Source: a virus (lineage: Duplodnaviria; Heunggongvirae; Uroviricota; Caudoviricetes). Taken from it: a stretch of DNA of 21,381 nucleotides. Positions within the stretch are counted from its first letter, which is position 1. Every line of letters starts with the position of its first letter. Positions 2,060 to 21,381 of this stretch are shown one piece after another. The notes under the pieces were generated by a model. That model was not told where the DNA came from, did no database searches, and saw nothing but the letters and a program-made list of their open reading frames with translations. The stretch is taken from the IMG/VR virus record IMGVR_UViG_2718217709_000001. One strand, 5' to 3'. The position numbers were made by a program, and so were the translations under genes.

Positions 2060-2515
2060 ATGGTCTTTGCAATGAGCAAATCTAATCTGGTCGCGTTCCG
2101 CATCCCATCTGAATTGCAGGATGAGTTTAATCGGTCTGTTCTCGCTTCTGGAGGGGATAAAACCTCCTGGCTTGTTGATGCGATTCGCATGAAGCTGGGA
2201 CAGCCGGAAAAGTCTATTGATTCACGAATGCTTGGGCTGGTGGAGCGCATGGAAAAAGCCGCTGCGTCGCTTATTGCCGGAAAGCCGAACATCCCACCAA
2301 AGCCATATAACGAAACGGCAGTTATAAAGATCATTGCCGATACCATCCGACAGGGATTTGATAATGGGCGTGTGATAGCTGAACGGATCAATGAAGCAGG
2401 CTATCAAACAAAAGCTGGTAAAGCGTGGGATAAAGATATTTACAGCGCGTGGAAGCGTCAGGGAAGCAATGCTGAAAAGTTAAAAGCGGTGATTGATTGT
2501 AAGGTCAGCGTATAA
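2060..2515 (+). CDS. Hypothetical protein, N-terminal ribbon-helix-helix-like segment (putative DNA-binding regulator)
   Basis: 151-aa ORF; N-terminus (LVAFRIPSELQDEF...SWLVDAIR) has an RHH-like beta-strand/helix pattern; alternative start at 2072; no clear SD. Confidence 0.5.
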   Translation: MVFAMSKSNLVAFRIPSELQDEFNRSVLASGGDKTSWLVDAIRMKLGQPEKSIDSRMLGLVERMEKAAASLIAGKPNIPPKPYNETAVIKIIADTIRQGFDNGRVIAERINEAGYQTKAGKAWDKDIYSAWKRQGSNAEKLKAVIDCKVSV

Positions 2516-2594
2516 ACATGAGTGCCCATTAGAAAGCTGCTTGGGCCAATACCTTTATACACCAGCAGGTGGTGACGATAGGTGAGGATCAGGA

Positions 2595-2795
2595 ATGAAA
2601 GGCAGAACGCCACACATTGAACATCAAGCCAACCACTTCTCGGATGTTCGCAATGAGATGATTGCCATTCGCGGTGATATGCACGGAATGGAGCGTCGCC
2701 TAGCAGATAAGATGGACGAGAATCAGAAGTGGATCATCGTCCTGTTGATTTTATCAATTCTTATCCCGCTACTTATCGCATTGGTCACAAAATGA
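2595..2795 (+). CDS. Small protein with C-terminal transmembrane anchor (66 aa), XhlA/holin-like architecture
   Basis: GAGGA RBS 6 nt upstream of ATG; charged helical N-terminus followed by a hydrophobic tail (WIIVLLILSILIPLLIALV). Confidence 0.45.
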   Translation: MKGRTPHIEHQANHFSDVRNEMIAIRGDMHGMERRLADKMDENQKWIIVLLILSILIPLLIALVTK

Positions 2796-3056
2796 ATATC
2801 CAATGTGTATGCTGTCGATGCTACGCGCGCGTACTTGTCGCAAAATATCAGGCAAAGGCCAGATTCAGAACGTCGTGATAACCACCAGCACAACATGAGA
2901 GGTCATGTAACGCGATTTATCACACCAGATACATGTGATTGGTGTACCCGCATAAAACATCGTCATAGCGCGTCCTGTGCGCATATACGCCGATAATCAA
3001 CACATCACCACCACTCTGTCTTATGTAGAGAACAGTTTTATGGTGCTCCCCGCCAT

Positions 3057-3124
3057 CGCGTGCGTACTGGTCGGACACAGCTGCAAAAAATTTTGCAACT
3101 GATACACCTCGCGCGCGTACTGGT
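3057..3124. repeat. Two adjacent copies of a dispersed ~25-bp repeat (CGCGYGCGTACTGGTC...); related copies near 1223, 2824 and 3191
   Basis: Direct comparison of the sequence at 1223-1253, 2824-2848, 3057-3080, 3109-3136 and 3191-3203. Confidence 0.4.
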
Positions 3125-3249
3125 CACGAAATTGGTGTTTTGCTGTGGCAGTGATATCAGAAAAATCTTCCTGTTTCACATAAAGCGGATATGCGCGTAC
3201 TGTAACGGCCCCATCAACGGGGAGCGGATTTGAAATCCCGACCCAAGCT

Positions 3250-3675
3250 ATGTACCAAATGCCATGTCTTGGATATATGATGATTGCCATTCTAAACAAA
3301 GCTAAAGGGAGGGTTGGTGTGAGGGGGCAGGCAGTTATAATTATTTTGTTGGGTTTAATTGTCGCAAAGTTATACCCGACTTTATCGATGGTGTTTTTTG
3401 CCATTATTGGCGCAGCCATCTTTACTTATATCATTAAACATACCGCCTTGTGGTTCTATAAAATTGATATAGTTCAGAAGTTTGTACGTCCTGTGTCGAT
3501 GTTATTACTAGCATTAATACCAATTGGTGTTGCTTATGTAATTGATGTTTTTTACCCTTCGGACACTGAAAGGTGGTTGATAGTTTTGTATTGTTATATT
3601 GGTGTAGCTCTCTTTTGTGGATTTCATTGGTGTTTCGAAAAGATCAATGACTCTATTTCAAAGAATAAAGATTGA
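3250..3675 (+). CDS. Multi-pass membrane protein, AT-rich gene (start uncertain; GTG at 3319 has a strong AGGGAGGG RBS)
   Basis: Translation is dominated by hydrophobic helices (3-4 predicted TM segments); markedly lower GC than surroundings. Confidence 0.5.
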   Translation: MYQMPCLGYMMIAILNKAKGRVGVRGQAVIIILLGLIVAKLYPTLSMVFFAIIGAAIFTYIIKHTALWFYKIDIVQKFVRPVSMLLLALIPIGVAYVIDVFYPSDTERWLIVLYCYIGVALFCGFHWCFEKINDSISKNKD

Positions 3676-3694
3676 GGCCATCCGTGGCCATTCA

Positions 3695-4020
3695 CTAGTC
3701 ATTATCTGGATCATTAGATAGCCAAGTAATGATGCCCAGTCTGGCGATGGTCCGTTTTTCCTGTTCAGGAAGAGAGTTAAAAAAACTCTTCCATTGAGGG
3801 GAGCGCCTGATACGTGAATCAACAATGTGCCCAGGCGCTTTTCCGTGTAGATTTTTTACTGCGCTCTGGAAGGCTGGCGAGGCAATTAATTTATCCGCAG
3901 CATCAGCCGCCCCTGCTCCACCAGCTAATCGAGCTTTACTCGCCAATCTTGCTCCAATATCAGCCCCAGCAATGGCTCCAAGCGATCCAAAATGAGCGCC
4001 TACCATCGTGCCTATTTTTT
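3695..4020 (-). pseudogene. 3' fragment of a 705-aa cargo gene split by the IS insertion (joins with 7604..9395)
   Basis: Reading frame continues exactly across the IS once the IS and one copy of the GAA duplication are removed (...KHI-QKIGT-MVGAHF...). Confidence 0.7.
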
Positions 4021-4077
4021 GAATGAACCGCCCCGGAAATCCTGGAGACTAAACTCCCTGAGAAAGAGGTAAACAGG

Positions 4078-4404
4078 ATGACTAAAAATACTCGTTTTTC
4101 CCCCGAAGTCCGTCAGCGGGCGATTCGTATGGTTCTGGAAAGTCAGGATGAATATGACTCACAGTGGGCGGCAATTTGTTCCATTGCCCCAAAGATTGGC
4201 TGTACGCCGGAGACTCTGCGTGTCTGGGTTCGCCAGCATGAGCGGGATACCGGGGGCGGTGATGGTGGGCTCACCAGCGCGGAACGTCAGCGTCTGAAAG
4301 AGCTGGAACGTGAAAATCGTGAACTGCGCCGCAGTAACGATATCCTTCGCCAGGCTTCCGCTTATTTTGCGAAGGCGGAGTTCGACCGCCTCTGGAAAAA
4401 ATGA
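4078..4404 (+). CDS. IS3-family transposase OrfA (HTH)
   Basis: 108-aa ORF ([22 protein letters not shown]...) recalled as IS629/IS1203-type OrfA; ends at the AAAAAA slippery run. Confidence 0.85.
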
Positions 4405-4818
4405 TGCCACTGCTGGATAAGCTGCGTGAGCAGTACGGGGTCGGACCGGTATGCAGCGAACTGCATATTGCCCCGTCAACGTATTACCATTGTCAGCAAC
4501 AGCGACATCATCCGGATAAACGCAGTGCCCGTGCGCAGCACGACGACTGGCTGAAGAGAGAGATACAGCGCGTATACGATGAAAATCATCAGGTGTACGG
4601 TGTGCGTAAAGTCTGGCGTCAGTTGTTACGGGAAGGAATCAGGGTGGCCAGATGTACAGTGGCACGTCTCATGGCGGTTATGGGACTTGCCGGTGTTCTC
4701 CGGGGTAAAAAGGTCCGTACGACCATCAGCCGGAAAGCCGTTGCCGCAGGCGACCGCGTAAACCGTCAGTTCGTGGCAGAACGACCTGACCAGCTGTGGG
4801 TGGCTGATTTTACTTACG
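4401..4818 (+). CDS. IS3-family transposase OrfB, 5' exon (interrupted by group II intron after ...[10 protein letters not shown])
   Basis: In-frame continuation is found at 7089; the intervening 2270 bp has group II intron boundaries. Confidence 0.75.
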
Positions 4819-5474
4819 GTGTGCCCGGAGTTCAGGGCGGGCATGGATGCTTAAATGAACCGCGAGTCTGTCTGGAATATTGAACCGGTAACTCACGATG
4901 AGAAACCCAACAATCCCACCGGGTGTGACGGTGGAGAACCTGAGCGGCAGTGACCTGCGGCATGCCCGCAGGGTGATGTAACCCGCTGACAACGGGGATT
5001 GAGGCGAGATCACTAAGCCGAGATGATCCTCAAGGTTAAGTACTGAAAGGCTGAAGAACATGAACCCGTTAATCCGCCTCTGTGGGTTGAAAACGTCACC
5101 ACGGCCTACGTGATCTGACAGGCCGTGCAGGAGGAACTGGCAGTAATACGTAAGCACTGCCGGTCGAAGGTGTTTTGACATGTATGCGAAACACCGGGGC
5201 AGCAGCGTCTATCACGCTTGCGTTGCTGACTTCTGCCAACTTGCGGCAAGCAAGGATAAAGAGTGCGACGGGCAGCCTCCTCAGTATGCCTGAGTCCAGG
5301 CAGGTAAACCGGGGAAGGTCAGCGACGGATGTTAAGGGGGCATGGCTCCGATGACGCGCTGGCTGGCGGAGCTTCCGTAGTAGTCCGCGATGGGGAAAGC
5401 CCATTACATGGCGAAGGGAAGCAGTTTGAATGTGTTTGCGACGTGAATTAACTGACCTAACGAGGTGAAGACCT

Positions 5475-6998
5475 TTGATAATCAGCGAAATGCAACGCAA
5501 GCTTGCCACATGGGCAGTCACCGATCCGTCCCTACGGATTCAACGGCTGCTGCGTCTGATAACACAACCAGAATGGCTGGCTGAAGCGGCGCGGATCACG
5601 CTTTCATCAAAGGGGGCCCATACCCCCGGCGTTGATGGCGTGAACAAAACAATGCTACAGGCCAGACTGGCTGTTGAGCTGCAAATCCTCAGGGATGAAT
5701 TACTCTCAGGCCACTACCAGCCCTTGCCCGCCAGACGGGTTTACATCCCTAAAAGCAACGGCAAACTGCGACCACTGGGTATCCCCGCGTTGCGGGATCG
5801 TATTGTTCAGCGGGCCATGCTGATGGCGATGGAGCCGATATGGGAGAGTGATTTTCATACACTCTCATATGGCTTCCGGCCTGAGCGCAGTGTCCACCAC
5901 GCTATCCGCACGGTGAAATTACAGCTCACAGACTGTGGTGAAACCCGGGGACGCTGGGTGATTGAAGGCGACCTGTCCAGTTACTTCGACACCGTACATC
6001 ATCGACTGCTGATGAAGGCTGTACGCCGCAGGATCAGTGACGCACGTTTCATGACTCTGCTGTGGAAAACCATCAAGGCGGGACATATCGATGTCGGTCT
6101 CTTTCGGGCGGCCAGTGAAGGTGTGCCACAGGGCGGTGTTATATCGCCGCTATTATCGAACATCATGCTGAATGAGTTCGATCAATACCTGCATGAGCGC
6201 TACCTGAGCGGGAAAGCCAGAAAAGATCGGTGGTACTGGAATAACAGTATCCAACGGGGCCGAAGTACGGCGGTCAGAGAAAACTGGCAGTGGAAACCCG
6301 CGGTGGCGTACTGCCGCTATGCCGATGATTTTGTCCTCATCGTCAAAGGCACCAAAGCACAGGCGGAAGCCATCAGGGAGGAGTGTCGGGGTGTGCTCGA
6401 AGGCAGTCTGAAACTCAGGCTGAACATGGATAAGACTAAAATCACCCATGTTAATGACGGCTTTATCTTTCTGGGGCACAGGATCATTCGCAAACGCAGT
6501 CGTTATGGCGAGATGCGAGTGGTCTCAACGATCCCGCAGGAGAAAGCCAGAAACTTCGCCGCATCGCTGACAGCACTGTTATCAGGCAACTACAGTGAAA
6601 GCAAAGTCGATATGGCTGAACAACTCAACCGAAAACTGAAAGGCTGGGCCATGTTCTATCAGTTCGTTGATTTTAAGGCCAAAGTCTTCAGTTATATCGA
6701 CCGTGTCGTGTTCTGGAAGCTGGCTCACTGGCTGGCCCGCAAATACCGTACAGGTATCGCTTCCCTGATGAGGTGGTGGTGTAAATCACCGAAACCGGGT
6801 CAGAGCAAAACGTGGGTTTTATTTGGTAAAACCAATCACGGCAAGCTCAGCGGCGAAATACTGTACCGGTTGGTGGGGCAAGGCAAGAAGCTGTTCCGCT
6901 GGCGGCTACCCGAAGGTAATCCCTATCTGAGGACGGAGACCAGAAACACGTATACATCGCGCTTTACAGAAGTGGCAATGGCGTTCGCCAGCATTTAA
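5475..6998 (+). CDS. Group II intron-encoded reverse transcriptase/maturase (no endonuclease domain evident)
   Basis: 507-aa ORF with RT motifs (GIPALRDRIVQRA, YADDFV) and a C-terminal maturase (X) region; no HNH-like Cys/His cluster at the C-terminus. Confidence 0.9.
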   Translation: MIISEMQRKLATWAVTDPSLRIQRLLRLITQPEWLAEAARITLSSKGAHTPGVDGVNKTMLQARLAVELQILRDELLSGHYQPLPARRVYIPKSNGKLRPLGIPALRDRIVQRAMLMAMEPIWESDFHTLSYGFRPERSVHHAIRTVKLQLTDCGETRGRWVIEGDLSSYFDTVHHRLLMKAVRRRISDARFMTLLWKTIKAGHIDVGLFRAASEGVPQGGVISPLLSNIMLNEFDQYLHERYLSGKARKDRWYWNNSIQRGRSTAVRENWQWKPAVAYCRYADDFVLIVKGTKAQAEAIREECRGVLEGSLKLRLNMDKTKITHVNDGFIFLGHRIIRKRSRYGEMRVVSTIPQEKARNFAASLTALLSGNYSESKVDMAEQLNRKLKGWAMFYQFVDFKAKVFSYIDRVVFWKLAHWLARKYRTGIASLMRWWCKSPKPGQSKTWVLFGKTNHGKLSGEILYRLVGQGKKLFRWRLPEGNPYLRTETRNTYTSRFTEVAMAFASI

Positions 6999-7003
6999 AT
7001 GGA

Positions 7004-7037
7004 GAGCCGGATGCGCTGAAAGGTGCACGTCCGGTTC
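7004..7037 (+). ncRNA. Group II intron domain V (catalytic hairpin)
   Basis: GAGCCGGATGCGCTGAAAGGTGCACGTCCGGTTC, about 50 nt before the intron 3' end. Confidence 0.7.
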
Positions 7038-7060
7038 GGGGAGGAGAGGCAGGGAAATAG

Positions 7061-7561
<501 letters not shown>

Positions 7562-12242: not shown

Positions 12243-12462
12243 GTTTTACCTCTCTGATTTCTGCTGCCATATCTGTTGGCTCTATACAGCCGTCCCGACT
12301 TGCCACGCAGGGAATAATGATTTCAACGGTATCGCCGTCAATACACATTTCAACATTCGCCCATGCCGCAATGGGTAGCCAGTCTGAACGCCCCTCAAAC
12401 CGTAGCTGCCAGCCAGAGGAAGAAGCTAACTGGCGCACTTTGTAAAATGGTGTGCTCATCAT
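12232..12462 (-). CDS. Hypothetical small protein (76 aa)
   Basis: GAGAGGG RBS upstream of tandem ATGs; first gene after the primase and iteron cluster B. Confidence 0.5.
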   Translation of the reverse strand: MMSTPFYKVRQLASSSGWQLRFEGRSDWLPIAAWANVEMCIDGDTVEIIIPCVASRDGCIEPTDMAAEIREVKHEQ

Positions 12463-12506
12463 TGGTTGTTCCCTCTCAGCCAGCCAGAAGAAATGCGTTT
12501 GTTAAT

Positions 12507-12609
12507 GGTATAGGTGGTACAGGTCTGGTATAGGTAAGATATTGACCTGTACCACTATAACGCATTGTTTTTAATGCTGAATTAGCAAAGTGGTATAGGT
12601 GGTACAGGT
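12507..12609. repeat. Iteron-like cluster B: GGTATAGGTGGTACAGGT x2 (12507-12524, 12592-12609), GGTATAGGT (12527-12535) and inverted ACCTGTACCAC (12545-12555); candidate origin
   Basis: Direct reading; located immediately 3' of the primase/helicase gene; same core motif as cluster A. Confidence 0.55.
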
Positions 12610-12638
12610 AAAAACGATCTTCTTGTAAAAAGACTATA

Positions 12639-14990
12639 TTAAAAAACATCATAACCCCCCATACCGATCAGACGGGCAAACGCAGCCTGTAGAACTCCGA
12701 CCTCTGGTAGTTCGTAGAACACGCCATTCCCTCGGTCTGGTCTTCCATGCTTCACCAGCCCCATTTGTGCAAGTGATTTACCCAGTAGTGATCTGGCAGC
12801 TGGTTCTTTAAGCTTTTCCCCACGCTCAAGCGACCACGCTACAAATCGACTAACCATATCCTTTGCAAACAAACGGACTTCGCCATTAAACGGAGGTTCA
12901 TTGATTAGCTCGCCATAAAGAAACAATTCAACGCCAGACAGCCCCAGCAAGATTTCTTCACGTAAGGCATCGGTCTGTGGCGCTCGTTGAGGGTCAAAAC
13001 CTGAGAGATCCACCCCTTTAAGATGCCAAAGCAACTTTGCGGCACCGCCATCATTAAGCCAACTGTACAGCCGATCAAAATACTCCCGGCTCTGTGCTTT
13101 TTCAGGAGATGGCTCAAGCACGAGATAGCGGCGCTCTCTTATCCCTGCCTGTAATACCTGTGTGCTGTTACTGGCAAATATCAACCGGGCAAAATTCGGC
13201 ATTGGTTCAGCATCAATTCCCTTGCGCTCAAGGTTAAACGTCGGTTCGCTAATAATCGCTTTAAGTCTGTCAGCTTCAGACGGCTTGTGGATCGTCACTT
13301 CGTCAGCAAATACCAGTAGCTTGTTAGCAAGTATTGAATTGAAGCGCCCTGAAATATGTCCCGCCCCGTTAATGTGGGCGGCGTACTGCCCCAGTATTTG
13401 CAGCAGCGGTTTAACCGTTGTGCCTTTCCCTGTGCCCGGGACAGATTTCATCACGATTGCCACGGACGGTTTTTCATCAGGCTTTTGGATAATGTGCGCC
13501 ATCCACTGGATAAGATATTGGTATGCCTCTTCATTACCGGCACAGACAACCTGCAACAGGTGATTAAGGTATACCGTGCAATCTCCTTCAATTGGTTCCA
13601 GTGCCAGCCCCTCATACAGATTAAAAACATCGTCAGGGCATTTGTCTGGTACTGGATAAAATCCTACGCCTCCTGGCTTGTAGTTCTTCCCACTCCATGA
13701 CAGCCACGCCGATCCCGCCAGCTTTCTGGCGACTCTCGGTTTATGATGAAAATAATGCTGAAATTGTGATAAATCCTCGAAAACGTGCGATACACCGCCG
13801 GTTTGAGAAGGCTTTAGCGACACCACCTTGTGTTTCCCGCCGATGGTGACATGCGTAAACGTCCGGTTGATTTCTTCGAGGACAGCAATTTCATCATCGC
13901 TTAACACCTCGCCAGAACTGATCTCATTCAGCGCCCCGACTGACTGTTTGTGATTTTTCACCTGCGCCCCTTTCCCCCGTGGCTGGTACATCGAATCTTT
14001 AAATGCTGCTGTGGCTGCCGCCAGCCCGTGTTGTTGGTGATAGTCGTTCCAGTCGGCTTTATAGTCAGTCGGTGGCAGAGACACCCAGCCAGCTACGGAA
14101 ATAGCGGCCCTCTCTGCGGCATCTTTCCCCGTGTTGATCCCTCCACTTTCGGAGTTTCCTTGCTGGTGATCGTTATCTGCGGCAATGATGATTTGTGCCT
14201 GTGGATATGTTCTGCGCATGACTTCCGCTACTGGCAACAGGTTGCCAGCGTCGATTGCTGCCACTGTCATTGCGTCAGGGCGAATTAAATGGCACGACAG
14301 GGCGGTAGCCACCCCCTCAGCAATTATGATGCTGTGAGGTCGTTTCTGTGCGTTTATGGCGTGATATGCCCCTCGCTTTGCTGAACCTGTCAGGAGTCTT
14401 TTTTCACCATGTGAGGTAATAGTCTGTGCTGCTGTGACTGCGCCGGATTTATCCACCAGCGCCAGCAACAGAGATCCATCGGGCAACACAGGGAATGTAA
14501 AATCACCTACCCCTTTCGCAACCAGATAATCAGATTTGCCGTTTACAGCCTTTCTGCGCATGTCATCAAACTGACGGGAAAACGTATCCCGTCTTTGTTG
14601 TTCGTCCTTCTCTGCCCTTTTCAGGCGCTCCTGTTCGCGTCGCTGGCGCTCGGTTTCCAGTTGTTCCCGTTTCTGGCTGGTGGCTTCTGGTGTTTCCGTT
14701 GTCCGGTAATCAATACCCAGAACATCAGCGGCAAGAAGCGCCGCCTCTGTTGTGTCGCAGTTATTTACGCGTTTAATTAAATCCAGCCCATCACCAGCGC
14801 CGCACTGATTACAGATGAAGCTACCGCGCCCGTTGTCATCGAACCGGAATCGATCTTTGCCCCCACATGCAGGGCAGGGAGCATGACGGCGCGGAGAGTC
14901 AGGGACATTTATGTTCAGGCAGTCCAGCACATGAGGCCAGTTGTTTTCAGACGCACTGATAACCTGACGGATAAGATCAATGTTTCGCAT
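12639..14990 (-). CDS. P4 alpha-type primase/helicase (N-terminal zinc ribbon, Toprim-like middle, C-terminal P-loop NTPase)
   Basis: 783-aa ORF; CPACGG...CNQCG zinc-binding motif near the N-terminus; Walker A VPGTGKGT in the C-terminal half. Confidence 0.85.
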   Translation of the reverse strand: MRNIDLIRQVISASENNWPHVLDCLNINVPDSPRRHAPCPACGGKDRFRFDDNGRGSFICNQCGAGDGLDLIKRVNNCDTTEAALLAADVLGIDYRTTETPEATSQKREQLETERQRREQERLKRAEKDEQQRRDTFSRQFDDMRRKAVNGKSDYLVAKGVGDFTFPVLPDGSLLLALVDKSGAVTAAQTITSHGEKRLLTGSAKRGAYHAINAQKRPHSIIIAEGVATALSCHLIRPDAMTVAAIDAGNLLPVAEVMRRTYPQAQIIIAADNDHQQGNSESGGINTGKDAAERAAISVAGWVSLPPTDYKADWNDYHQQHGLAAATAAFKDSMYQPRGKGAQVKNHKQSVGALNEISSGEVLSDDEIAVLEEINRTFTHVTIGGKHKVVSLKPSQTGGVSHVFEDLSQFQHYFHHKPRVARKLAGSAWLSWSGKNYKPGGVGFYPVPDKCPDDVFNLYEGLALEPIEGDCTVYLNHLLQVVCAGNEEAYQYLIQWMAHIIQKPDEKPSVAIVMKSVPGTGKGTTVKPLLQILGQYAAHINGAGHISGRFNSILANKLLVFADEVTIHKPSEADRLKAIISEPTFNLERKGIDAEPMPNFARLIFASNSTQVLQAGIRERRYLVLEPSPEKAQSREYFDRLYSWLNDGGAAKLLWHLKGVDLSGFDPQRAPQTDALREEILLGLSGVELFLYGELINEPPFNGEVRLFAKDMVSRFVAWSLERGEKLKEPAARSLLGKSLAQMGLVKHGRPDRGNGVFYELPEVGVLQAAFARLIGMGGYDVF

Positions 14991-16079: not shown

Positions 16080-16270
16080 TTTTCACCACCAAGAATTACC
16101 AGCTCTGCACGGGCATCGTTAACCAAAGATGAGCACGCTTTAATCGCATCCACGACATCAGCAGCGTCCATTTCTTCAGCCGAAAGACTGACAGCAACCA
16201 GGACAGCCGCTGCTTGCTCGATTAATTGAAGTGCGGACGTAAGGCGAGGGGTATTAATTGAGTTATTCAT
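16076..16270 (-). CDS. Hypothetical small protein (64 aa)
   Basis: 4-nt overlap with the downstream gene; start overlaps the upstream reading frame. Confidence 0.4.
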   Translation of the reverse strand: MNNSINTPRLTSALQLIEQAAAVLVAVSLSAEEMDAADVVDAIKACSSLVNDARAELVILGGEK

Positions 16271-16481
16271 TGGTTGCCCCCGTTTTTACTGGCATTTCGC
16301 CACCTTCCAGCAGGAAATGAACGTCACGAACGGCGAGATCCAATATCGCGAGTAACGCCTTCAGTCTTTCGTCTCGTGAGGGAGAGTTGCTCACCAGAAT
16401 GTCGTTAATCACTTCTGTCAGTGTGATGATCTGGCTTGTGCGTTCGAGGGGATCCATATGCACATCGTAGGTTTTAATCAT
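16263..16481 (-). CDS. Hypothetical small protein (72 aa, MIKTYDVH...), possibly the independent 3' end of the long open frame
   Basis: ATG overlaps the stop of the 64-aa MLATT gene (ATGATTAA); same frame as the 355-aa ORF. Confidence 0.35.
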   Translation of the reverse strand: MIKTYDVHMDPLERTSQIITLTEVINDILVSNSPSRDERLKALLAILDLAVRDVHFLLEGGEMPVKTGATNE

Positions 16482-17330
16482 GTGCCACCTCCATGCGGAT
16501 ACGACCAGCAAAAAAGCAGACGTGATCGCGCACCAGAGAACGGCGAGCATCGCGTTCAGACTCGGCAGCAATATGATGAATTTTGGCGGTAATTGTCGGG
16601 CAATCGCGGCGAACTGCGGCGATAATCCAGATAAATTGCGTTTTTTGGGTAGGGGTAGTAGCCAGCATGTGGCAGCCTCCTTCAGATAGCAGGTTACGCT
16701 ACCACCGGAAACGCCAATTTCGCTGGTGGTAGCCCAGACAGGGTTGGCGTAACCGGCTCTGAAGGATACCGGCGCTTCCGAAGAAGCCCCCGCCTGAGCC
16801 ACCATTGATTGACAAAGGCGCTGGATTATACACCAACGCCCAAAAAATGGGTGAGTCAGACCTACGACATAAAAAAAGACGCTTGGCGCGTCATATGTCG
16901 CCTTCAGAATTTTTAGGACGCCAATCCCGGCACCCGTTTTATGAGGTGCCTTATAACCATAAACCGTGTTGCCGCATAACGGCAAGCTCTTTTTTATGGA
17001 CTCCGAAAACTCACTATTGGAAGAACCAGAAGCACAGTACATCGCGCTCATTTCGTTAACGTCACGCGCGTGGACGAAGGTTTTTGTGGAGTCACTACAC
17101 GAGCAGAGAAAGCCATCTACGACCAGAAATTCTCTGGCATAGCCGCTGACCTTCTCAACGCTAACACCATCGACCGTAATTTCTGACATAGTTAAGGCAT
17201 CCGCTCCTACCACCAGCAAATGATAAACTTTGCTTGTATCTGCTGTATTAATGTCTGACTTTGCTGTCATATTGCTGGATTTTGGCGACATACCAGCCAG
17301 TGAAAATATCTTCTTCTGGGCGGTTAGCAT
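16263..17330 (-). CDS. Long open frame (355 aa); 5' part looks like a genuine gene, 3' extent doubtful
   Basis: GGAGG RBS and ATG overlapping the upstream stop by 4 nt; the frame stays open to 16263 but overlaps two well-formed small genes with poor codon usage there. Confidence 0.35.
16474..16668 (-). CDS. Hypothetical small protein (64 aa, MLATTPTQ...)
   Basis: Strong RBS AAGGAGG 7 nt upstream; all eight Arg codons are CGC/CGT and Leu mostly CTG, whereas the alternative long frame uses CTA/TTA/AGG/ATA here. Confidence 0.45.
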   Translation of the reverse strand: MLATTPTQKTQFIWIIAAVRRDCPTITAKIHHIAAESERDARRSLVRDHVCFFAGRIRMEVAHD

Positions 17331-18344: not shown

Positions 18345-18776
18345 TTAGGCGGCGTTAAACGCGTCCGGGTAGAGTTTCAGAATGTCGGCAATTTCCTGCT
18401 GAGAAAGTCCGTTGTGATCATTTATGTTCGCAAGATGGTTAACATGAGTGATCACTTTCAGAACATCACCACGGCAGGAGAAACGGTAGCGAAGGTGTGT
18501 TCCGATACCATCAGGATTCTTTTCGTCGATACGCTCCAGAGTGATTCCAAGCTGGCGTTCTAACTCTGTTGCATAGTTACGACCAGAAGACAGACGGCAG
18601 TAGCGAAGAATGTCATTTTCTGTCCATCCCTCTATACCAGTACGCAGCATATAGACTCGGGCACGATGCTTTTTCGGTGTGCGCTTTGGTGCTTGAAGGG
18701 ATTTTGTAAGGGGCGTAATATCAGATACGCGAATATCTGAATTAGCCGCCTGTAATGGGCGGTTTTTCTTTTCCAT
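18345..18776 (-). CDS. Hypothetical protein (143 aa), translationally coupled to alpA
   Basis: Start overlaps the alpA stop by 1 nt; basic N-terminus. Confidence 0.55.
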   Translation of the reverse strand: MEKKNRPLQAANSDIRVSDITPLTKSLQAPKRTPKKHRARVYMLRTGIEGWTENDILRYCRLSSGRNYATELERQLGITLERIDEKNPDGIGTHLRYRFSCRGDVLKVITHVNHLANINDHNGLSQQEIADILKLYPDAFNAA

Positions 18777-18994
18777 CAGGCCACCTTCCCGCGGCGTTCT
18801 GCCAGCCAGTTATTAATTTCCACCGCATCAAACGCAGTCACGTTATCTGTTAGCTTCACTGGGCGTGGAAGAGTGCCATTTTTAACCCATCTATCAATAG
18901 TAGGCAGTGAAACACCTAGCAATTCCGGCATGCGAAAGCGACGGATGTATCCAGTTGTTGGGATAGCTGATGATGCTGGCTTGTGTACTGTCAT
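18776..18994 (-). CDS. alpA: AlpA-family (MerR-like HTH) prophage transcriptional regulator
   Basis: 72-aa ORF; HTH segment LPELLGVSLPTIDRWVKNGTLPRPVKL typical of AlpA-type regulators of P4-like elements; position downstream of int. Confidence 0.7.
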   Translation of the reverse strand: MTVHKPASSAIPTTGYIRRFRMPELLGVSLPTIDRWVKNGTLPRPVKLTDNVTAFDAVEINNWLAERRGKVA

Positions 18995-19465
18995 GTCTCT
19001 AGTAACCTCTCTGATAGCTCATGAAGTTACTTAAAGTTTAGTGGTTGCCCATACAGTATTTCTATTAAGACTAGAATCTATTGAAAGAAATTATAAATCT
19101 ATTGAAAAAATACCGATCCACTGAAAGATTGCAAATGCAGGTGGGATAATTATTTTCTTTATTTTCAATTAGTTACCAGTTTAAAAAATCATTGTTTTAT
19201 CAAAGAGTTATATCTTTCATCGTCATTCATCATGTTTTTACATTTCTTTTTATCTTTTATTATTCAATTGGTTGAGTCGGTTTATAATGGCTCATGATGG
19301 CTTAAAATGGCTAATGATAGCTGGCGTATCTTTTAGAGATGGGGTGATTACAGATGAACTAAGCCGAACAGATATAGCAATGGCTAGGCATAGAATTATC
19401 TATGCTGGTGGAGATGGGTAAACAGGTAATGCCCCGCCATTGCTTTGGAGGGGCGTGAAAAGTGA
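18995..19465. promoter_or_regulatory. AT-rich control region upstream of alpA with phased short repeats (TCTATTGAAA x2 at 21-bp spacing; ATGGCT x3 at exact 10-bp spacing, 19287-19312)
   Basis: Direct reading; 470-bp non-coding gap between orf216 and alpA. Confidence 0.5.
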
Positions 19466-20116
19466 TTAGTCGAGATCGTGGACAGCTAATAAAGCCCGTG
19501 AGATTTTTTCTAGGAATGTGGCTTTTGCTATTCCTTTATGGGATATCCCTTCATCCTTGATTAAGGTTTCTATGTCACGGTATATAGCTGTGCGATTAGG
19601 TTTCCCATTTTGGATGTAGGAAGATGAGCCTGATTTTTTTATCAGCAGATGTACTATCAACCCCATCATTTTCATTGTCCCGTTTTCCTCATCCTGCTTT
19701 CTATGCTGCCCACGTCCGCTGCGGTTGGTTTCTTTGATGTAGTTTACTAACTGGAGTCCTCCAAGGTTTCGGGCTTTTTCTTCCCAGCCCTTGGTGCCAC
19801 GCAAATCATCAATCGCTTCTGATATTTTCTGAACAATTATTTCTGGTGTATTTGTGTCAATAAATGGGTAAGAAGCTAAGAAAATATCAAGGGCATGGCA
19901 AGGCTCATCTTTACTAGTTTTTTCACCTCTGTACACCTTGATAGCTCTGGCAAGATGAGTTCTGACAAAATCGACATATTCGAAATTTTCCTCAGGCACA
20001 TCGCTAATGCGCATAGATGGGTTTAGGCCAGCCAAGGCCACAGCCATTTCATGAGGGGTAATCGATACAGATGAACAAAGCCGTTCGATTGGCGATTTTC
20101 TCAAGATGTTGTTCAC
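19466..20116 (-). CDS. Hypothetical protein (216 aa), low GC, translationally coupled to int
   Basis: ATG overlaps the integrase stop (ATGA); no recognisable motifs. Confidence 0.55.
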   Translation of the reverse strand: MNNILRKSPIERLCSSVSITPHEMAVALAGLNPSMRISDVPEENFEYVDFVRTHLARAIKVYRGEKTSKDEPCHALDIFLASYPFIDTNTPEIIVQKISEAIDDLRGTKGWEEKARNLGGLQLVNYIKETNRSGRGQHRKQDEENGTMKMMGLIVHLLIKKSGSSSYIQNGKPNRTAIYRDIETLIKDEGISHKGIAKATFLEKISRALLAVHDLD

Positions 20117-21381
20117 ATTTGCCTCCGGGCTTTATCGAATGGCGTTACGTTGTAGTCTTTCCCGCTTTCCAGTGCCACCAGCAGATCTGCCCACTGTGCC
20201 AGTGCTGCTTTACGCTCATCAAAATACTGATGACGGTTATAAATCCCCTCTACGCCCTTAATGCGATGATTGAGGCATCGTTCCGCCACGACAGGATCAA
20301 CACCCAATGCTGCTAAATGAGTACGTGCGGTGCGTCGGAAGTCGTGAATCGTGAAATTAGGCACATCCGGCATTTCGGCGCGAACCTTAGCCAGTGCTAC
20401 GGGTAAAGTGCTTTCCTGAATATGTGGGATCATTCTGTTTTGCATCTTCCTGGCCGGAAGCACCCATGCGCTATTACATGAAAAGGTGTGTAGCTCTCTC
20501 AACCATTCAACGGCTGGGGAAGGTAGAGGTATATCAATAGGGTCTCCGTTTTTGCTGCGTTCTTCCGGCAAATGCCATACCGCACCATCTAAATCAAACT
20601 CTTCCCATCGTGCGGCGCATAACTCCATCTTACGAACGCATAGTGCCAGCAATAGCTTAAATGTCAGTTCGTTCTGGCGGCTGAATCCTTTTGCGGTGCG
20701 CATAGCCTCGAATAGCCTGATAAGCTCATCGCGAGTTAGCCAACGGTCGCGGGAAACCTCTTTACCACCAGCATCAGATACTTCAAACGCTGAACAAGGG
20801 TTTATCTCCAGAGCGTGGCGTTTTATCCCATAGTCAAAGATACGGCGTGTCCAGCGTAATACATCTGTTGCTATCGTTGGTGCTCCTCGGTCAACGATAC
20901 CTTTTAACATGTCGTCAATGTGACGTGGCTTAACGTCCTCTACCTTCATATGCCCAATGCAGGGGTTAATATCCTTATCAATTCTCCGGCGAAGGATATC
21001 GGGATGTTTCCATCTCGGAAGTATCTGTCGCTCGAAGTATTCGGCGGCCAGATCTGAAACGCGCATGGCGTTTTTCTCAGCCTCCATTTTTGCCAGTGCT
21101 TCAGCTTTTCGTTCCTGTTTTTCTGCTGCTACGTCATAGCCAAGAGCAACTCTGGCTGACAGCTCTTTTGCTGTTTCTCTGGCTTTTGATAGTGACAGTT
21201 CGGAGTAAGAGCCGATAACCATAGCCCGCTGTTTTCCTGCGAGCTTATATCGGAATCGCCAGAACGGGACTGTGTAGTTTTTGGGGTAGCAAATATAAAG
21301 GCCGTTGCCGTCTGCCTTGCCATCAAATCTGTCTCCCGCCTTTATCCATGCGCGGATCTGCATATCTGTGAGTTTTGGCAT
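20113..21381 (-). CDS. int: P4-family tyrosine integrase (site-specific recombinase)
   Basis: 422-aa ORF; N-terminal arm-binding-type segment (LTDMQIRAWIK...GNGLYI...WRFRYK), catalytic residues (R...HDFRRT...IYNRHQY) near the C-terminus; start codon is the last base of the window. Confidence 0.9.
   Translation of the reverse strand: MPKLTDMQIRAWIKAGDRFDGKADGNGLYICYPKNYTVPFWRFRYKLAGKQRAMVIGSYSELSLSKARETAKELSARVALGYDVAAEKQERKAEALAKMEAEKNAMRVSDLAAEYFERQILPRWKHPDILRRRIDKDINPCIGHMKVEDVKPRHIDDMLKGIVDRGAPTIATDVLRWTRRIFDYGIKRHALEINPCSAFEVSDAGGKEVSRDRWLTRDELIRLFEAMRTAKGFSRQNELTFKLLLALCVRKMELCAARWEEFDLDGAVWHLPEERSKNGDPIDIPLPSPAVEWLRELHTFSCNSAWVLPARKMQNRMIPHIQESTLPVALAKVRAEMPDVPNFTIHDFRRTARTHLAALGVDPVVAERCLNHRIKGVEGIYNRHQYFDERKAALAQWADLLVALESGKDYNVTPFDKARRQM

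What the first reader, a model, noticed from the sequence alone, without database searches (positions are those of the whole stretch)
18995..19465. AT-rich alpA control region with 10-bp phased ATGGCT triplet and TCTATTGAAA repeats
Seen: 470-bp AT-rich gap upstream of alpA containing ATGGCT at 19287, 19297 and 19307 (exact helical phasing) and TCTATTGAAA at 19077 and 19098, with a variant at 19061. Established: in P4-like and PICI-type elements the alpA region is the switch that responds to helper phage. Inference: these are binding sites for a host or helper-encoded factor controlling island induction.
Basis: partly seen in the sequence, partly recalled or inferred. Interest (0 to 1): 0.4.

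Follow-up and report, generated by a model that had tools for sequence, protein, structure and literature searches.

The report
alpA promoter region with two operator arrays
The AT-rich gap upstream of alpA in this E. coli phage satellite holds two real, conserved sets of repeated protein-binding sites. One always travels with an uncharacterised upstream gene, so both are testable candidates for the still unknown switch that wakes such islands when a helper phage grows.

Summary
ATGGCT occurs at 19287, 19297 and 19307, and a fourth copy, ATAGCT, lies at 19317. That gives four hexamers exactly one helical turn apart (1 of 5000 shuffles). TCTATTGAAA at 19077 and 19098 belongs to a four-unit array (19061, 19077, 19098, 19117). 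Its consensus on the alpA strand is TTTYAATRGAWT and its spacing is fixed at 19, 21 and 16 bp. The promoter-proximal unit overlaps a weak -35 upstream of a conserved -10 (TAAACT, 19035-19040).

The element is a Gram-negative PICI-type satellite with the gene order int, orf216, gap, alpA. The four-unit array is found, unchanged in sequence and spacing, in every lineage where an orf216 homolog precedes alpA. This holds down to 25-28% protein identity, with four AlpA alleles and an integrase only 26% identical. The array is absent from ten alpA loci that lack orf216. The phased hexamers have the geometry of recombination-directionality-factor (Xis/Cox/Apl/Vis-type) operators, and comparable phased arrays sit at the same place in most lineages.

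Most likely this is the alpA promoter-operator region. The proximal array would serve a regulator that travels with the int-orf216 block (probably orf216). The distal array would serve AlpA or a helper excisionase-like protein. The binding proteins are inferred, not shown. A new variant of a known kind; moderate interest.

The parts
20113..21381 (-). Tyrosine integrase gene (422 aa). Its stop overlaps the start of orf216.
   Evidence: ORF list; RefSeq annotation of the identical locus; Pfam Arm-DNA-bind_3/Phage_integrase on homologs.
19466..20116 (-). orf216, a 216-aa all-alpha protein of unknown function (phrog_30524). It is the candidate cognate regulator of the four-unit array.
   Evidence: Matches phrog_30524. 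No Pfam, NCBIfam or PDB sequence hit. The family is small, 34 clusters at 50% identity. The AF2 model has pLDDT 88 with no fold match in PDB or BFVD. It co-occurs with the array in all lineages examined.
19431..19454 (-). Hairpin (GCCCCGCCA / TGGAGGGGC on the + strand) just after the orf216 stop codon. It is terminator-like but has no clear U-tract.
   Evidence: Read from the sequence. Non-homologous hairpins occupy the same position in other lineages, by eye from the sequences printed. A weak sub-threshold Rfam CRISPR-DR10 hit here (E = 0.035, below the gathering score) is taken as a chance hairpin match.
19287..19322 (-). Four helically phased hexamers at 10-bp spacing. On the + strand they read ATGGCT, ATGGCT, ATGGCT, ATAGCT; on the alpA strand AGCTAT, AGCCAT, AGCCAT, AGCCAT. 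They lie 293-328 bp upstream of the alpA ATG.
   Evidence: a chain of 4; 1 of 500 shuffles. Comparable phased arrays at the same place reach 1 or fewer of 500 shuffles in 6 of 9 lineages. Copy number varies between near-identical loci. The first unit contains the 8-mer AGCTATCA, which is also present in the alpA 5'UTR and the att arm.
19130..19285 (.). AT-rich spacer (25% G+C, 156 bp) between the two arrays. It contains one IHF consensus match, TATCAAAGAGTTA, at 19198-19210.
   Evidence: Only short blocks are conserved across lineages.
19061..19126 (-). Four-unit direct-repeat array. Units start at 19117, 19098, 19077 and 19061 on the + strand. The consensus on the alpA strand is TTTYAATRGAWT, with spacing 19-21-16 bp.
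   Evidence: The consensus comes from 32 units in 8 lineages, with the T at one position and the G and A invariant and identical spacing everywhere. In alignment A2, 46 of 62 invariant columns fall in the last 134 nt of the gap. A search anchored on the array recovers loci whose orf216 homolog is 27-29% identical.
19035..19063 (-). Putative sigma-70 alpA promoter. The -10 is TAAACT (19040-19035). The weak -35 is AGAAAT (19063-19058, 17-bp spacer) and overlaps unit 4. The transcription start is predicted near 19028-19030.
   Evidence: CAnTAnAnT is invariant in 8 aligned gap variants. The consensus promoter scan did not call it because the -35 is poor. The start site is inferred, not mapped.
18997..19036 (-). 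alpA 5'UTR stem-loop. The loop carries AGCTATCA (19019-19012) and the 3' arm carries the Shine-Dalgarno sequence.
   Evidence: RNA fold gives -14.6 kcal/mol, z = -2.8. The CGTAAC/GTTACG arms have co-varying outer pairs in 12 loci.
18776..18994 (-). alpA (72 aa), a Phage_AlpA / excisionase-type winged-HTH regulator.
   Evidence: Pfam PF05930 at 6.2e-06 (above its cut-off) and HTH_17; TIGR01764 excisionase weak.

Best explanation
The gap is the promoter-operator region of alpA, the master activator and excisionase-type regulator of a Gram-negative PICI-type phage satellite. It has a conserved modular layout. Read in the direction of alpA transcription, the order is:
1. a hairpin ending the int-orf216 unit;
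2. four hexamers (AGCYAT) one helical turn apart;
3. about 150 bp of very AT-rich DNA with an IHF-like site;
4. four roughly 20-bp direct repeats (TTTYAATRGAWT, spacing 19-21-16), the last of which overlaps the weak -35 of a sigma-70 promoter with a conserved -10;
5. a 5'UTR hairpin enclosing the ribosome-binding site.

Shown here: both arrays are non-random and conserved, and the proximal array persists with orf216 through deep divergence.

Inferred mechanism:
- The proximal array is the operator of a regulator that belongs to the int-orf216 block, most probably the orf216 protein. The weak core promoter suggests that occupancy at about -41, -57, -78 and -98 gates RNA polymerase recruitment.
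- The distal phased hexamers are bound cooperatively, head to tail, by an RDF-type winged-helix protein. This could be AlpA itself (giving the published positive autoregulation) or a helper excisionase/Cox-like protein (giving helper induction, as P2 Cox does at P4 PLL).
- The AT-rich spacer and IHF-like bend would bring the distal complex to the promoter, and the spacer may also be a target for H-NS silencing.
For: Element identity:
- Gene order is int, orf216, alpA, antA/B, ash (with C4-type and isrK RNAs), then pri-rep followed by iterons flanking an AT-rich stretch. This matches the published GN-PICI organisation (PMC6092414, PMC10111431).

Repeats are real:
-.

Proximal array under selection:
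- The unit consensus and the 19-21-16 spacing are identical in 8 lineages, while the rest of the gap is barely alignable.
- It sits just upstream of an invariant -10-like CAnTAnAnT.

Link to orf216:
- The array is present in all loci where an orf216 homolog precedes alpA. These are E. coli (two AlpA alleles), Klebsiella-type, L009, Buttiauxella, Rouxiella, Yersinia (homolog about 25% identical) and the L055/vB_KppS-Ant group (homolog 27-29%, integrase 26%, 94-aa AlpA).
- It is absent from 10 alpA loci with other or no intervening genes, and from 2 orf216-homolog loci without alpA.
- An array-anchored scan, blind to orf216, returned only loci with orf216 homologs wherever upstream DNA was available.

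Distal array:
- Exact 10-bp phasing with conserved hexamers but differing 4-bp spacers.
- Significant phased chains at the same position in 6 of 9 lineages.
- RDFs bind short direct repeats one helical turn apart, and Apl operators are 6 bp (PMC7498355).
- AGCTATCA occurs 5 times in the 41-kb locus L001, always in the alpA orientation and only in the int-alpA zone: twice in the att arm, once in orf216, once in the array and once in the 5'UTR.
- A 13-mer is shared between the att arm and the 5'UTR.

Precedents:
- PalpA is helper-induced and AlpA-boosted.
- H-NS silences an alpA promoter (PMC5148205).
Against: - No binding data exist for any of these proteins.
- orf216 has no recognisable DNA-binding domain. 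There is no Pfam, NCBIfam or PDB hit, and a confident AF2 model (pLDDT 88) matches nothing. The only hints are an HTH-like C-terminal motif and an E = 0.09 AlpA-HTH match in one homolog.
- An unchanged operator sequence alongside orf216 proteins only 25% identical fits a conserved host or helper factor at least as well.
- Physical adjacency alone explains part of the co-occurrence.
- The hexamer sequence in sister lineages with near-identical AlpA differs (AGCCAT, AGTCAT, GGTCAT, AGTCGT).
- In the recombinant L046, with a different AlpA allele, the distal repeats still resemble those of L009. The array therefore follows the int-orf216 block, not alpA.
- Two lineages (L046, L017) have only 2-copy phased repeats.
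- The att-arm/array motif sharing is clear only in the window's own lineage.
- The promoter and transcription start are predicted, not mapped.
Confidence: 0.5

Rival explanations
1. One reading: one or both arrays are binding sites for a helper-phage-encoded activator or a conserved host factor that switches alpA on during helper growth. On this view orf216 is an unrelated passenger that simply stays next to this promoter type.
For: Helper induction of PalpA still occurs in an alpA deletion mutant, and the inducer is unidentified. The weak -35 with sites centred near -41 fits an activator-dependent promoter. The array sequence is unchanged across hosts from E. coli to Yersinia while orf216 falls to 25% identity, which is what a conserved external factor would produce. 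P2 Cox activating P4 PLL is a direct precedent for a helper RDF acting upstream of the alpA homolog vis. Excisionase crosstalk between helper and PICI is documented.
Against: The array never appears at alpA promoters lacking orf216, although those islands live in the same hosts and some have near-identical AlpA. No known consensus of lambda CII, P2 Ogr/Delta, P2 Cox or LexA is present. Neither the gap nor the array has similarity in 50,697 phage records.
Confidence: 0.27
2. AlpA itself binds the four-unit array as a class II autoactivator. The phased hexamers are not specific sites but curved, slippage-prone DNA that helps nucleoid proteins such as H-NS silence the promoter.
For: AlpA autoactivates its promoter in EcCICFT073 and EcCIMP1. 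Winged-helix RDF-type proteins bind tandem direct repeats. The spacer is 25% G+C, and H-NS silences alpA in CP4So. The 10-bp units expand and contract between near-identical loci.
Against: The same array sequence is kept upstream of four very different AlpA alleles (72, 71, 70 and 94 aa; the 94-aa type is not detectable by tblastn with the window's AlpA). It is missing upstream of AlpA proteins 77-93% identical to the window's. In the window the hexamers are conserved while the 4-bp spacers differ, which argues for selection on the hexamer rather than recent slippage.
Confidence: 0.12
3. The gap is a second replication origin or partition-like site, with iterons flanking an AT-rich unwinding element.
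For: Two repeat sets flank a 156-bp AT-rich stretch, which is superficially the layout described for PICI origins.
Against: A canonical PICI origin lies 3' of pri-rep at about 12460-12640. Its iterons (CCTGTACCA/CCTATACCA) are unrelated to either repeat set in the gap. The proximal array abuts a conserved -10 and the alpA 5'UTR. No DnaA box is present.
Confidence: 0.03
4. The repeats serve the opposite strand. They would be a small antisense ORF (27 aa, 19041-19124) or an antisense promoter (TATAAT at 19283-19288, or CTGAAA-18-GATAAT at 19121-19150) giving an RNA against orf216/int, with the hexamers acting as operators between face-to-face promoters as in P2 and 186.
For: Promoter-like sites are called on the + strand, and a perfect TATAAT was read directly from the sequence. 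Short ORFs across the array give blastp hits between lineages. RDF operators in P2-like phages lie between convergent promoters.
Against: The peptide similarity follows directly from the conserved DNA. Invariant columns show no 3-nt periodicity, and ORF starts differ between lineages. The 49-aa + strand ORF 19272-19421 has no family hit, and by eye it is interrupted by a stop codon in L009. The + strand promoter-like sites do not exceed the shuffle expectation (4 found against 2.8 expected).
Confidence: 0.06

Closest known systems
alpA promoter (PalpA) of E. coli PICIs EcCICFT073 and EcCIMP1
   Same: Same class of element and the same position, downstream of int and upstream of alpA, which heads the co-directional island operon. 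Published reporters with about 450 bp of upstream DNA are induced by helper phage independently of SOS and are boosted by AlpA (PMC6092414, PMC11773190).
   Different: The EcCICFT073-type locus examined here (L004) has no gene between int and alpA. Its 427-bp gap lacks both arrays. No cis-elements or binding proteins have been reported for any PalpA in the papers read. Helper inducibility of this particular promoter is untested.
Satellite phage P4 late promoter PLL upstream of vis, activated by P2 Cox and bound by Vis
   Same: An AlpA-family gene is the first gene of a helper-activated operon next to int. Regulation is by RDF-type proteins that also act at att (as summarised in PMC7498355 and PMC6092414).
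   Different: No Ogr/Delta dyad (TGT-N12-ACA) and no Cox-box consensus is present in the gap. Gene content is PICI-type, not P4-type. Details of the P4 Vis and Cox sites rest on my recollection of papers that were not available to read.
RDF operators of coliphage 186 Apl, P2 Cox and lambda Xis
   Same: Short direct repeats (6 bp for Apl) spaced 10-11 bp apart, in sets of 3-7, bound cooperatively head to tail, and used both at att and at promoters (PMC7498355). The ATGGCT array has exactly this geometry.
   Different: The sequence is unrelated. Here the array lies about 250 bp upstream of the predicted promoter rather than over it. Binding is untested.
SaPI master repressor Stl and its operator (Gram-positive PICIs)
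   Same: An island-encoded regulator gene sits in the int module next to the control region of the island's lytic operon. The helper phage acts on that regulator. This would be the functional analogue if orf216 is a repressor.
   Different: There is no sequence or fold similarity. stl is divergent from the regulated operon, whereas orf216 is co-directional with alpA. The weak core promoter here suggests activation rather than repression. No role for orf216 has been shown.
H-NS-silenced alpA promoter of prophage CP4So (Shewanella)
   Same: An alpA promoter bound and silenced by H-NS, which controls excision (PMC5148205). The window's gap is 25-34% G+C against about 47-50% in the flanking genes.
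   Different: This was shown in another genus and for a P4-like prophage. No H-NS data exist for this locus.

Membership tests
Gram-negative PICI (EcCICFT073-type satellite) integration/regulation zone | int followed by co-directional alpA (Phage_AlpA), with most island genes on one strand | tested here: met
   ORFs and Pfam results; RefSeq annotation of the identical locus.
Gram-negative PICI (EcCICFT073-type satellite) integration/regulation zone | pri-rep followed by an origin made of two iteron sets flanking an AT-rich stretch | tested here: met
   A 783-aa pri-rep ORF lies at 12639-14990. CCTGTACCA/CCTATACCA repeats flank AT-rich DNA just 3' of it.
Gram-negative PICI (EcCICFT073-type satellite) integration/regulation zone | alpA promoter induced by helper phage and auto-activated by AlpA | not testable with these tools
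   Needs reporter assays. Shown only for EcCICFT073 and EcCIMP1.
RDF (Xis/Cox/Apl/Vis-type) operator array | three or more short direct repeats spaced about one helical turn (10-11 bp) apart | tested here: met
   Four hexamers at exactly 10 bp, found in 1 of 5000 and 1 of 500 shuffles.
RDF (Xis/Cox/Apl/Vis-type) operator array | the same motif is also present in the att arm next to int | tested here: inconclusive
   AGCTATCA occurs twice in the att arm, once in the array and once in the 5'UTR in the window's lineage. GCTATCA is at about -116 from int in related elements. In Klebsiella-type, Buttiauxella, Yersinia and L055 lineages the array hexamers are not clearly the att-arm motif.
RDF (Xis/Cox/Apl/Vis-type) operator array | cooperative binding and bending by the RDF protein | not testable with these tools
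   Needs EMSA or footprinting.
P4 PLL-type late promoter | Ogr/Delta activator dyad TGT-N12-ACA near -55, and Cox boxes | tested here: not met
   No match on either strand of the gap.
Iteron-type replication origin | repeats identical to the Rep-binding iterons, located next to rep | tested here: not met
   The iterons next to pri-rep have a different sequence and lie 6.5 kb away.
SOS (LexA) operator | CTG-N10-CAG | tested here: not met
   No match in the gap. By eye, most lineages have CTG-N10-CAC between unit 4 and the -10. Published PalpA induction is SOS-independent.
Known sRNA or cis-regulatory RNA family (Rfam) | a covariance-model match at the gathering score within the gap | tested here: not met
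   No hit in the gap at gathering thresholds. Only a sub-threshold CRISPR-DR10 hit on the hairpin.
DNA-binding regulator (assignment of orf216) | a recognisable DNA-binding domain by sequence or fold | tested here: inconclusive
   No Pfam, NCBIfam or PDB hit. The AF2 model at pLDDT 88 has no Foldseek match below E = 1. Only an HTH-like C-terminal motif, 'IS.KG[IL]..STFY.K', is conserved.

The most novel reading that the evidence does not exclude
The orf216 family (phrog_30524, no known domain, fold unmatched) is the missing island-encoded master regulator of a widespread subset of Gram-negative PICIs, including capsid-forming ones such as vB_KppS-Ant. It would bind the four-unit TTTYAATRGAWT operator over the -35 of PalpA and be the direct target of the helper phage's inducing signal. 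This would be a functional counterpart of Stl in staphylococcal islands, built on a new DNA-binding fold.
Probability: 0.3. Interest if true: 0.7.

Novelty: new variant of a known kind. Interest (0 to 1): 0.5.

Why it matters
How Gram-negative PICIs sense their helper phage is an open question. The 2018 paper that defined these elements states that a global repressor is unclear and that the phage inducer is unidentified. The papers I could read up to 2026 still describe only that alpA is induced by the helper and activates itself.

This locus provides concrete, conserved cis-elements: a four-unit operator overlapping the -35, and an RDF-type phased array. It also provides a specific candidate trans-factor gene that always accompanies the operator. 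That turns the question into a small set of EMSA and reporter experiments.

The cassette spans E. coli, Klebsiella-type, Buttiauxella, Rouxiella and Yersinia islands and one inducible packaged satellite, so an answer would generalise. If the arrays prove to be ordinary AlpA sites, the result is still a useful map of a PICI switch region, though not a surprising one.

Tried and rejected
- Replication-origin idea for the ATGGCT array. Rejected because the PICI origin with unrelated iterons lies 3' of pri-rep.
- cos site. There is no cosN-like 12-mer in the gap; the two 2-mismatch hits elsewhere in the window are at chance level.
- att arm or integrase arm-type sites. The arm-type repeats are TGTACAC-like and lie at the island ends, and neither array motif matches them.
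- Known operator consensuses (Ogr/Delta, Cox, CII, LexA, DnaA). None is present.
- Rfam families. Nothing is found in the gap.
- Coding potential. The 49-aa + strand ORF has no family hit. The short antisense ORFs that look conserved follow from DNA conservation of the array.
- Diverged copies within E. coli. The gap is clonal, at least 99% identical in 109 of 112 records, so E. coli genomes alone give no footprint.
- The loose array pattern scanned in IMG/VR gave mostly chance AT-rich hits and had to be filtered by the full architecture.
- Phage records. There is no real similarity to the gap.
- orf216 fold. A deeper alignment gave pLDDT 88 but no structural neighbour in PDB or BFVD.
- RNAalifold on a MAFFT alignment of the 5'UTR failed because loop lengths differ. 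The arms were compared by script instead.
- The palindromes in other alpA-upstream modules (the L003/L005 type) look like terminators of the preceding gene rather than operators. The idea that each intervening gene has its own operator remains only suggestive.

Full report
**What the window is.** All relevant genes lie on the minus strand:
- int, 21381-20113;
- an overlapping 216-aa ORF (orf216), 20116-19466;
- the 471-bp gap;
- alpA, 18994-18776;
- a PM1773-family ORF, an antA/B antirepressor homolog, DUF4222 and an ash-family ORF that contains Rfam C4-antisense and isrK RNAs;
- small ORFs and a 783-aa primase-helicase, 14990-12639.

An identical locus in E. coli E66 sits between yicC and dinD. 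Directly 3' of pri-rep there are CCTGTACCA/CCTATACCA repeats flanking AT-rich DNA. This is the origin layout published for Gram-negative PICIs (PMC6092414). A relative with the same downstream genes at thrW/proA in strain ABU 83972 (a tRNA-Thr gene lies next to proA) looks to me like EcCICFT073, although no tool result identifies it as such. The element is therefore a PICI-type satellite, and the finding lies between its integration zone and alpA.

**Checking the observation.**
- The coordinates are right. The gap is 34% G+C, falling to 25% over 19130-19285, against about 47-50% in the neighbouring genes.
- The ATGGCT triplet is really a quartet: ATGGCT at 19287, 19297 and 19307, plus ATAGCT at 19317. 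Matches to the three-copy pattern with up to 3 mismatches are expected 0.01 times by chance in window shuffles, against 3 overlapping matches observed. Any exact hexamer in three 10-bp-phased copies arose in 1 of 5000 dinucleotide shuffles of the gap.
- The hexamers are identical while the 4-bp spacers (CATG, TAAA, AATG) differ. That argues for selection on the hexamer rather than a fresh tandem duplication.
- The TCTATTGAAA pair belongs to four units at 19061, 19077, 19098 and 19117.

**Related sequences.** Within E. coli the gap is clonal. It is found in 110 of 5426 genomes, nearly all at 99% identity or more, so informative comparisons had to come from elsewhere.
- Anchoring on AlpA in one genome per species gave 13 useful Enterobacterales loci.
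- Anchoring on orf216 gave IMG/VR and metagenome loci.
- Protein homologs were looked up on their contigs.

Two patterns emerged. First, alpA alleles 77-93% identical to the window's occur behind several different upstream modules. Only those with an orf216 homolog carry a long AT-rich gap with the repeats. Second, wherever an orf216 homolog precedes alpA, the four-unit array is present. This holds for:
- a second E. coli lineage with a different 71-aa AlpA and an unrelated 5'UTR (L046-50);
- Buttiauxella (L044);
- Klebsiella-type loci (L012, L023-25, L035-40);
- L009;
- Rouxiella (L016/17);
- Yersinia enterocolitica, where the orf216 homolog is about 25% identical and AlpA is a 70-aa allele (L172/173).

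**An array-anchored test.** A scan of IMG/VR for two array units was very noisy. Filtering for the full architecture left six loci. One was a Klebsiella-type relative. Four (L055, L072, L109, L110) had an orf216 homolog of 27-29% identity, followed by a 94-aa Phage_AlpA protein; in the three with enough upstream DNA the integrase was only 26-27% identical. One locus was truncated upstream. The GenBank record 'Escherichia phage vB_KppS-Ant' is a 16.5-kb induced, packaged element with terminase and capsid genes, and it has the same cassette.

Across 32 units from 8 lineages the consensus is TTTYAATRGAWT, with the G and A invariant and spacing always 19, 21 and 16 bp. None of 10 alpA loci without orf216, and neither of 2 orf216-homolog loci without alpA, has even a pair of units. 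In the alignment of eight gap variants, 46 of 62 invariant columns fall in the last 134 nt, which hold the array plus CAnTAnAnT.

**Promoter anatomy (inferred).**
- The invariant CAnTAnAnT gives a -10 of TAAACT at 19040-19035.
- Seventeen bp upstream lies AGAAAT (19063-19058). With an 18-bp spacer the hexamer is TAGAAA. Either way it overlaps the core of unit 4.
- Every lineage has an equally poor -35 at that place, which is why the consensus scan missed the site.
- With a start near 19028-19030, the four units are centred at about -41, -57, -78 and -98. This is the layout of a promoter that depends on, or is gated by, a protein bound over the -35.
- The 5'UTR then forms a stem-loop (-14.6 kcal/mol, z = -2.8). 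Its CGTAAC/GTTACG arms have co-varying outer pairs in a dozen loci. Its loop carries AGCTATCA and its 3' arm carries the Shine-Dalgarno sequence.

**The distal array.**
- In 6 of 9 lineages, at a comparable position upstream of the four-unit array, there is a chain of 4-5 hexamers at 10-11-bp phase that occurs in 1 or fewer of 500 shuffles.
- On the alpA strand the hexamers read AGCCAT here, GGTCAT/AGTCAT in Buttiauxella, GTTGCCAT in Yersinia, and GTTCAT and CACSTAA in the L055 group. Klebsiella-type loci carry several sets.
- Copy number differs between otherwise near-identical loci.
- RDF proteins bind exactly such arrays. Apl operators are 6-bp direct repeats 10-11 bp apart, used at att and between promoters (PMC7498355). 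AlpA is an RDF-type winged-helix protein.
- In the window's lineage the first unit is part of AGCTATCA. This 8-mer occurs five times in the 41-kb locus L001, always in the alpA orientation and only within the 2.6-kb int-alpA zone. Two copies lie in the att arm beyond int, one in orf216, one in the array and one in the 5'UTR loop. About 1.3 occurrences would be expected on both strands of the whole locus.
- A 13-mer (TCATGAGCTATCA) is shared by the att arm and the 5'UTR.

This is what one expects of a protein that acts both at att and at its own promoter, as P4 Vis is reported to do. The support is nevertheless lineage-limited. In L046 the distal repeats follow the int-orf216 block rather than the swapped alpA.

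**Who binds the proximal array?** Persistent co-occurrence points to orf216, which is translationally coupled to int and is followed by a hairpin. I could not show that orf216 binds DNA.
- It has no Pfam, NCBIfam or PDB sequence match.
- The family is small.
- A confident AF2 model (pLDDT 88, all-alpha, two domains) has no neighbour in PDB or BFVD.
- The only hints are a conserved C-terminal 'IS.KG[IL]..STFY.K' motif and an E = 0.09 match of that stretch to the AlpA HTH in one homolog.

The operator is unchanged while orf216 drops to 25% identity, which is equally what a conserved host or helper factor would give. AlpA is a poor candidate for this array. Four very different AlpA alleles sit behind the same array, and near-identical AlpA proteins sit behind promoters that lack it.

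**Known systems and literature.** Published work shows that PalpA of EcCICFT073 and EcCIMP1 is induced by helper phage independently of SOS, is still induced without alpA, and is boosted by AlpA. The inducer and any repressor are unidentified. I found no paper describing cis-elements of a PICI alpA promoter, this array, or orf216. H-NS silencing of an alpA promoter is documented in Shewanella CP4So. Consensus sites for Ogr/Delta, Cox, CII, LexA and DnaA are absent. One IHF consensus lies in the spacer.

**Verdict.** The interpretation as a control region with protein-binding repeats is right. The attribution to a host or helper factor is unproven, and for the TCTATTGAAA array an island-encoded factor is at least as likely. 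This is a new variant of a known kind of regulatory region. It has a specific, testable hypothesis attached, and I rate its interest at 0.5.

Noticed in passing
window 16722-16809 (-) and 16872-16949 (-): Rfam C4 antisense RNA (79.9 bits) and isrK (60.5 bits) lie inside the 355-aa 'ash family' ORF 16263-17330. This matches the P4 CI-like immunity-RNA zone described for PICI 'Bro' regions, and the long ORF call may partly be an artefact.
   Followed up: no
window 12460-12640: PICI origin-like structure 3' of pri-rep: ACCTGTACCACCTATACCA-type iterons on both sides of an AT-rich stretch.
   Followed up: partly
window 18997-19036 (-): alpA 5'UTR hairpin enclosing the SD and an AGCTATCA box. Its CGTAAC/GTTACG arms have co-varying outer base pairs in 12 loci, including loci with unrelated upstream modules. 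It may be a translational control element or an inverted-repeat operator.
   Followed up: partly
L001 20320-22871 (window 19012-19019, 19315-19322, 19939-19946, plus two sites beyond the window end): The 8-mer AGCTATCA occurs 5 times in a 41-kb locus, all in one orientation and all within the int-alpA zone. Two copies are in the att arm upstream of int, one of them directly after the yicC stop codon.
   Followed up: partly
L023 vs L012; L025 vs L023; L172 vs L173 (gap regions): Copy-number variation of perfect 10-bp units between otherwise near-identical loci: CCGTGCCAGT 4 vs 2 copies, CATAGCGAGT 3 vs 1-2, GTTGCCATCA 5 vs 4. This suggests slipped-strand expansion within the phased arrays.
   Followed up: no
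L175 (GenBank LR881103, 'Escherichia phage vB_KppS-Ant') 5123-7868: This 16.5-kb 'phage' record from an induced prophage is a satellite with terminase, capsid, int, an orf216 homolog, a 590-bp gap with the same arrays, and a 94-aa AlpA. The cassette therefore also occurs in a capsid-encoding, packaged element.
   Followed up: partly
window 4359-4475 and 7002-7088: An ALIL pseudoknot (IS3-type frameshift signal, 121 bits) and a group II intron domain (65 bits). The left part of the window is occupied by insertion elements, so the island's distal genes may be disrupted.
   Followed up: no
L002 (E. coli HNSQ2209) 3296-5920: An IS66-family element lies within about 37 bp upstream of an identical alpA, separating it from the int-proximal control region in that strain.
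   Followed up: no
L009 (CACSKA010000004.1): A 429-kb contig titled 'Chryseobacterium sp. 18061' carries an island with int, orf216, alpA and ant genes 82-90% identical to the E. coli ones. The record is probably mislabelled or a contaminant.
   Followed up: no
window 19198-19210 (+): The only IHF consensus match in the gap (TATCAAAGAGTTA) lies mid-spacer inside one of the few conserved spacer blocks. By eye, a matching consensus is also present in the Klebsiella-type locus L012.
   Followed up: no
L171 (E. coli, smpB/ssrA-adjacent island) 2501-3145: A distant orf216 homolog (P0053, 1438 member sequences) follows an integrase next to smpB. It has no alpA and no array downstream; a 390-aa ORF on the opposite strand follows instead.
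   Followed up: no
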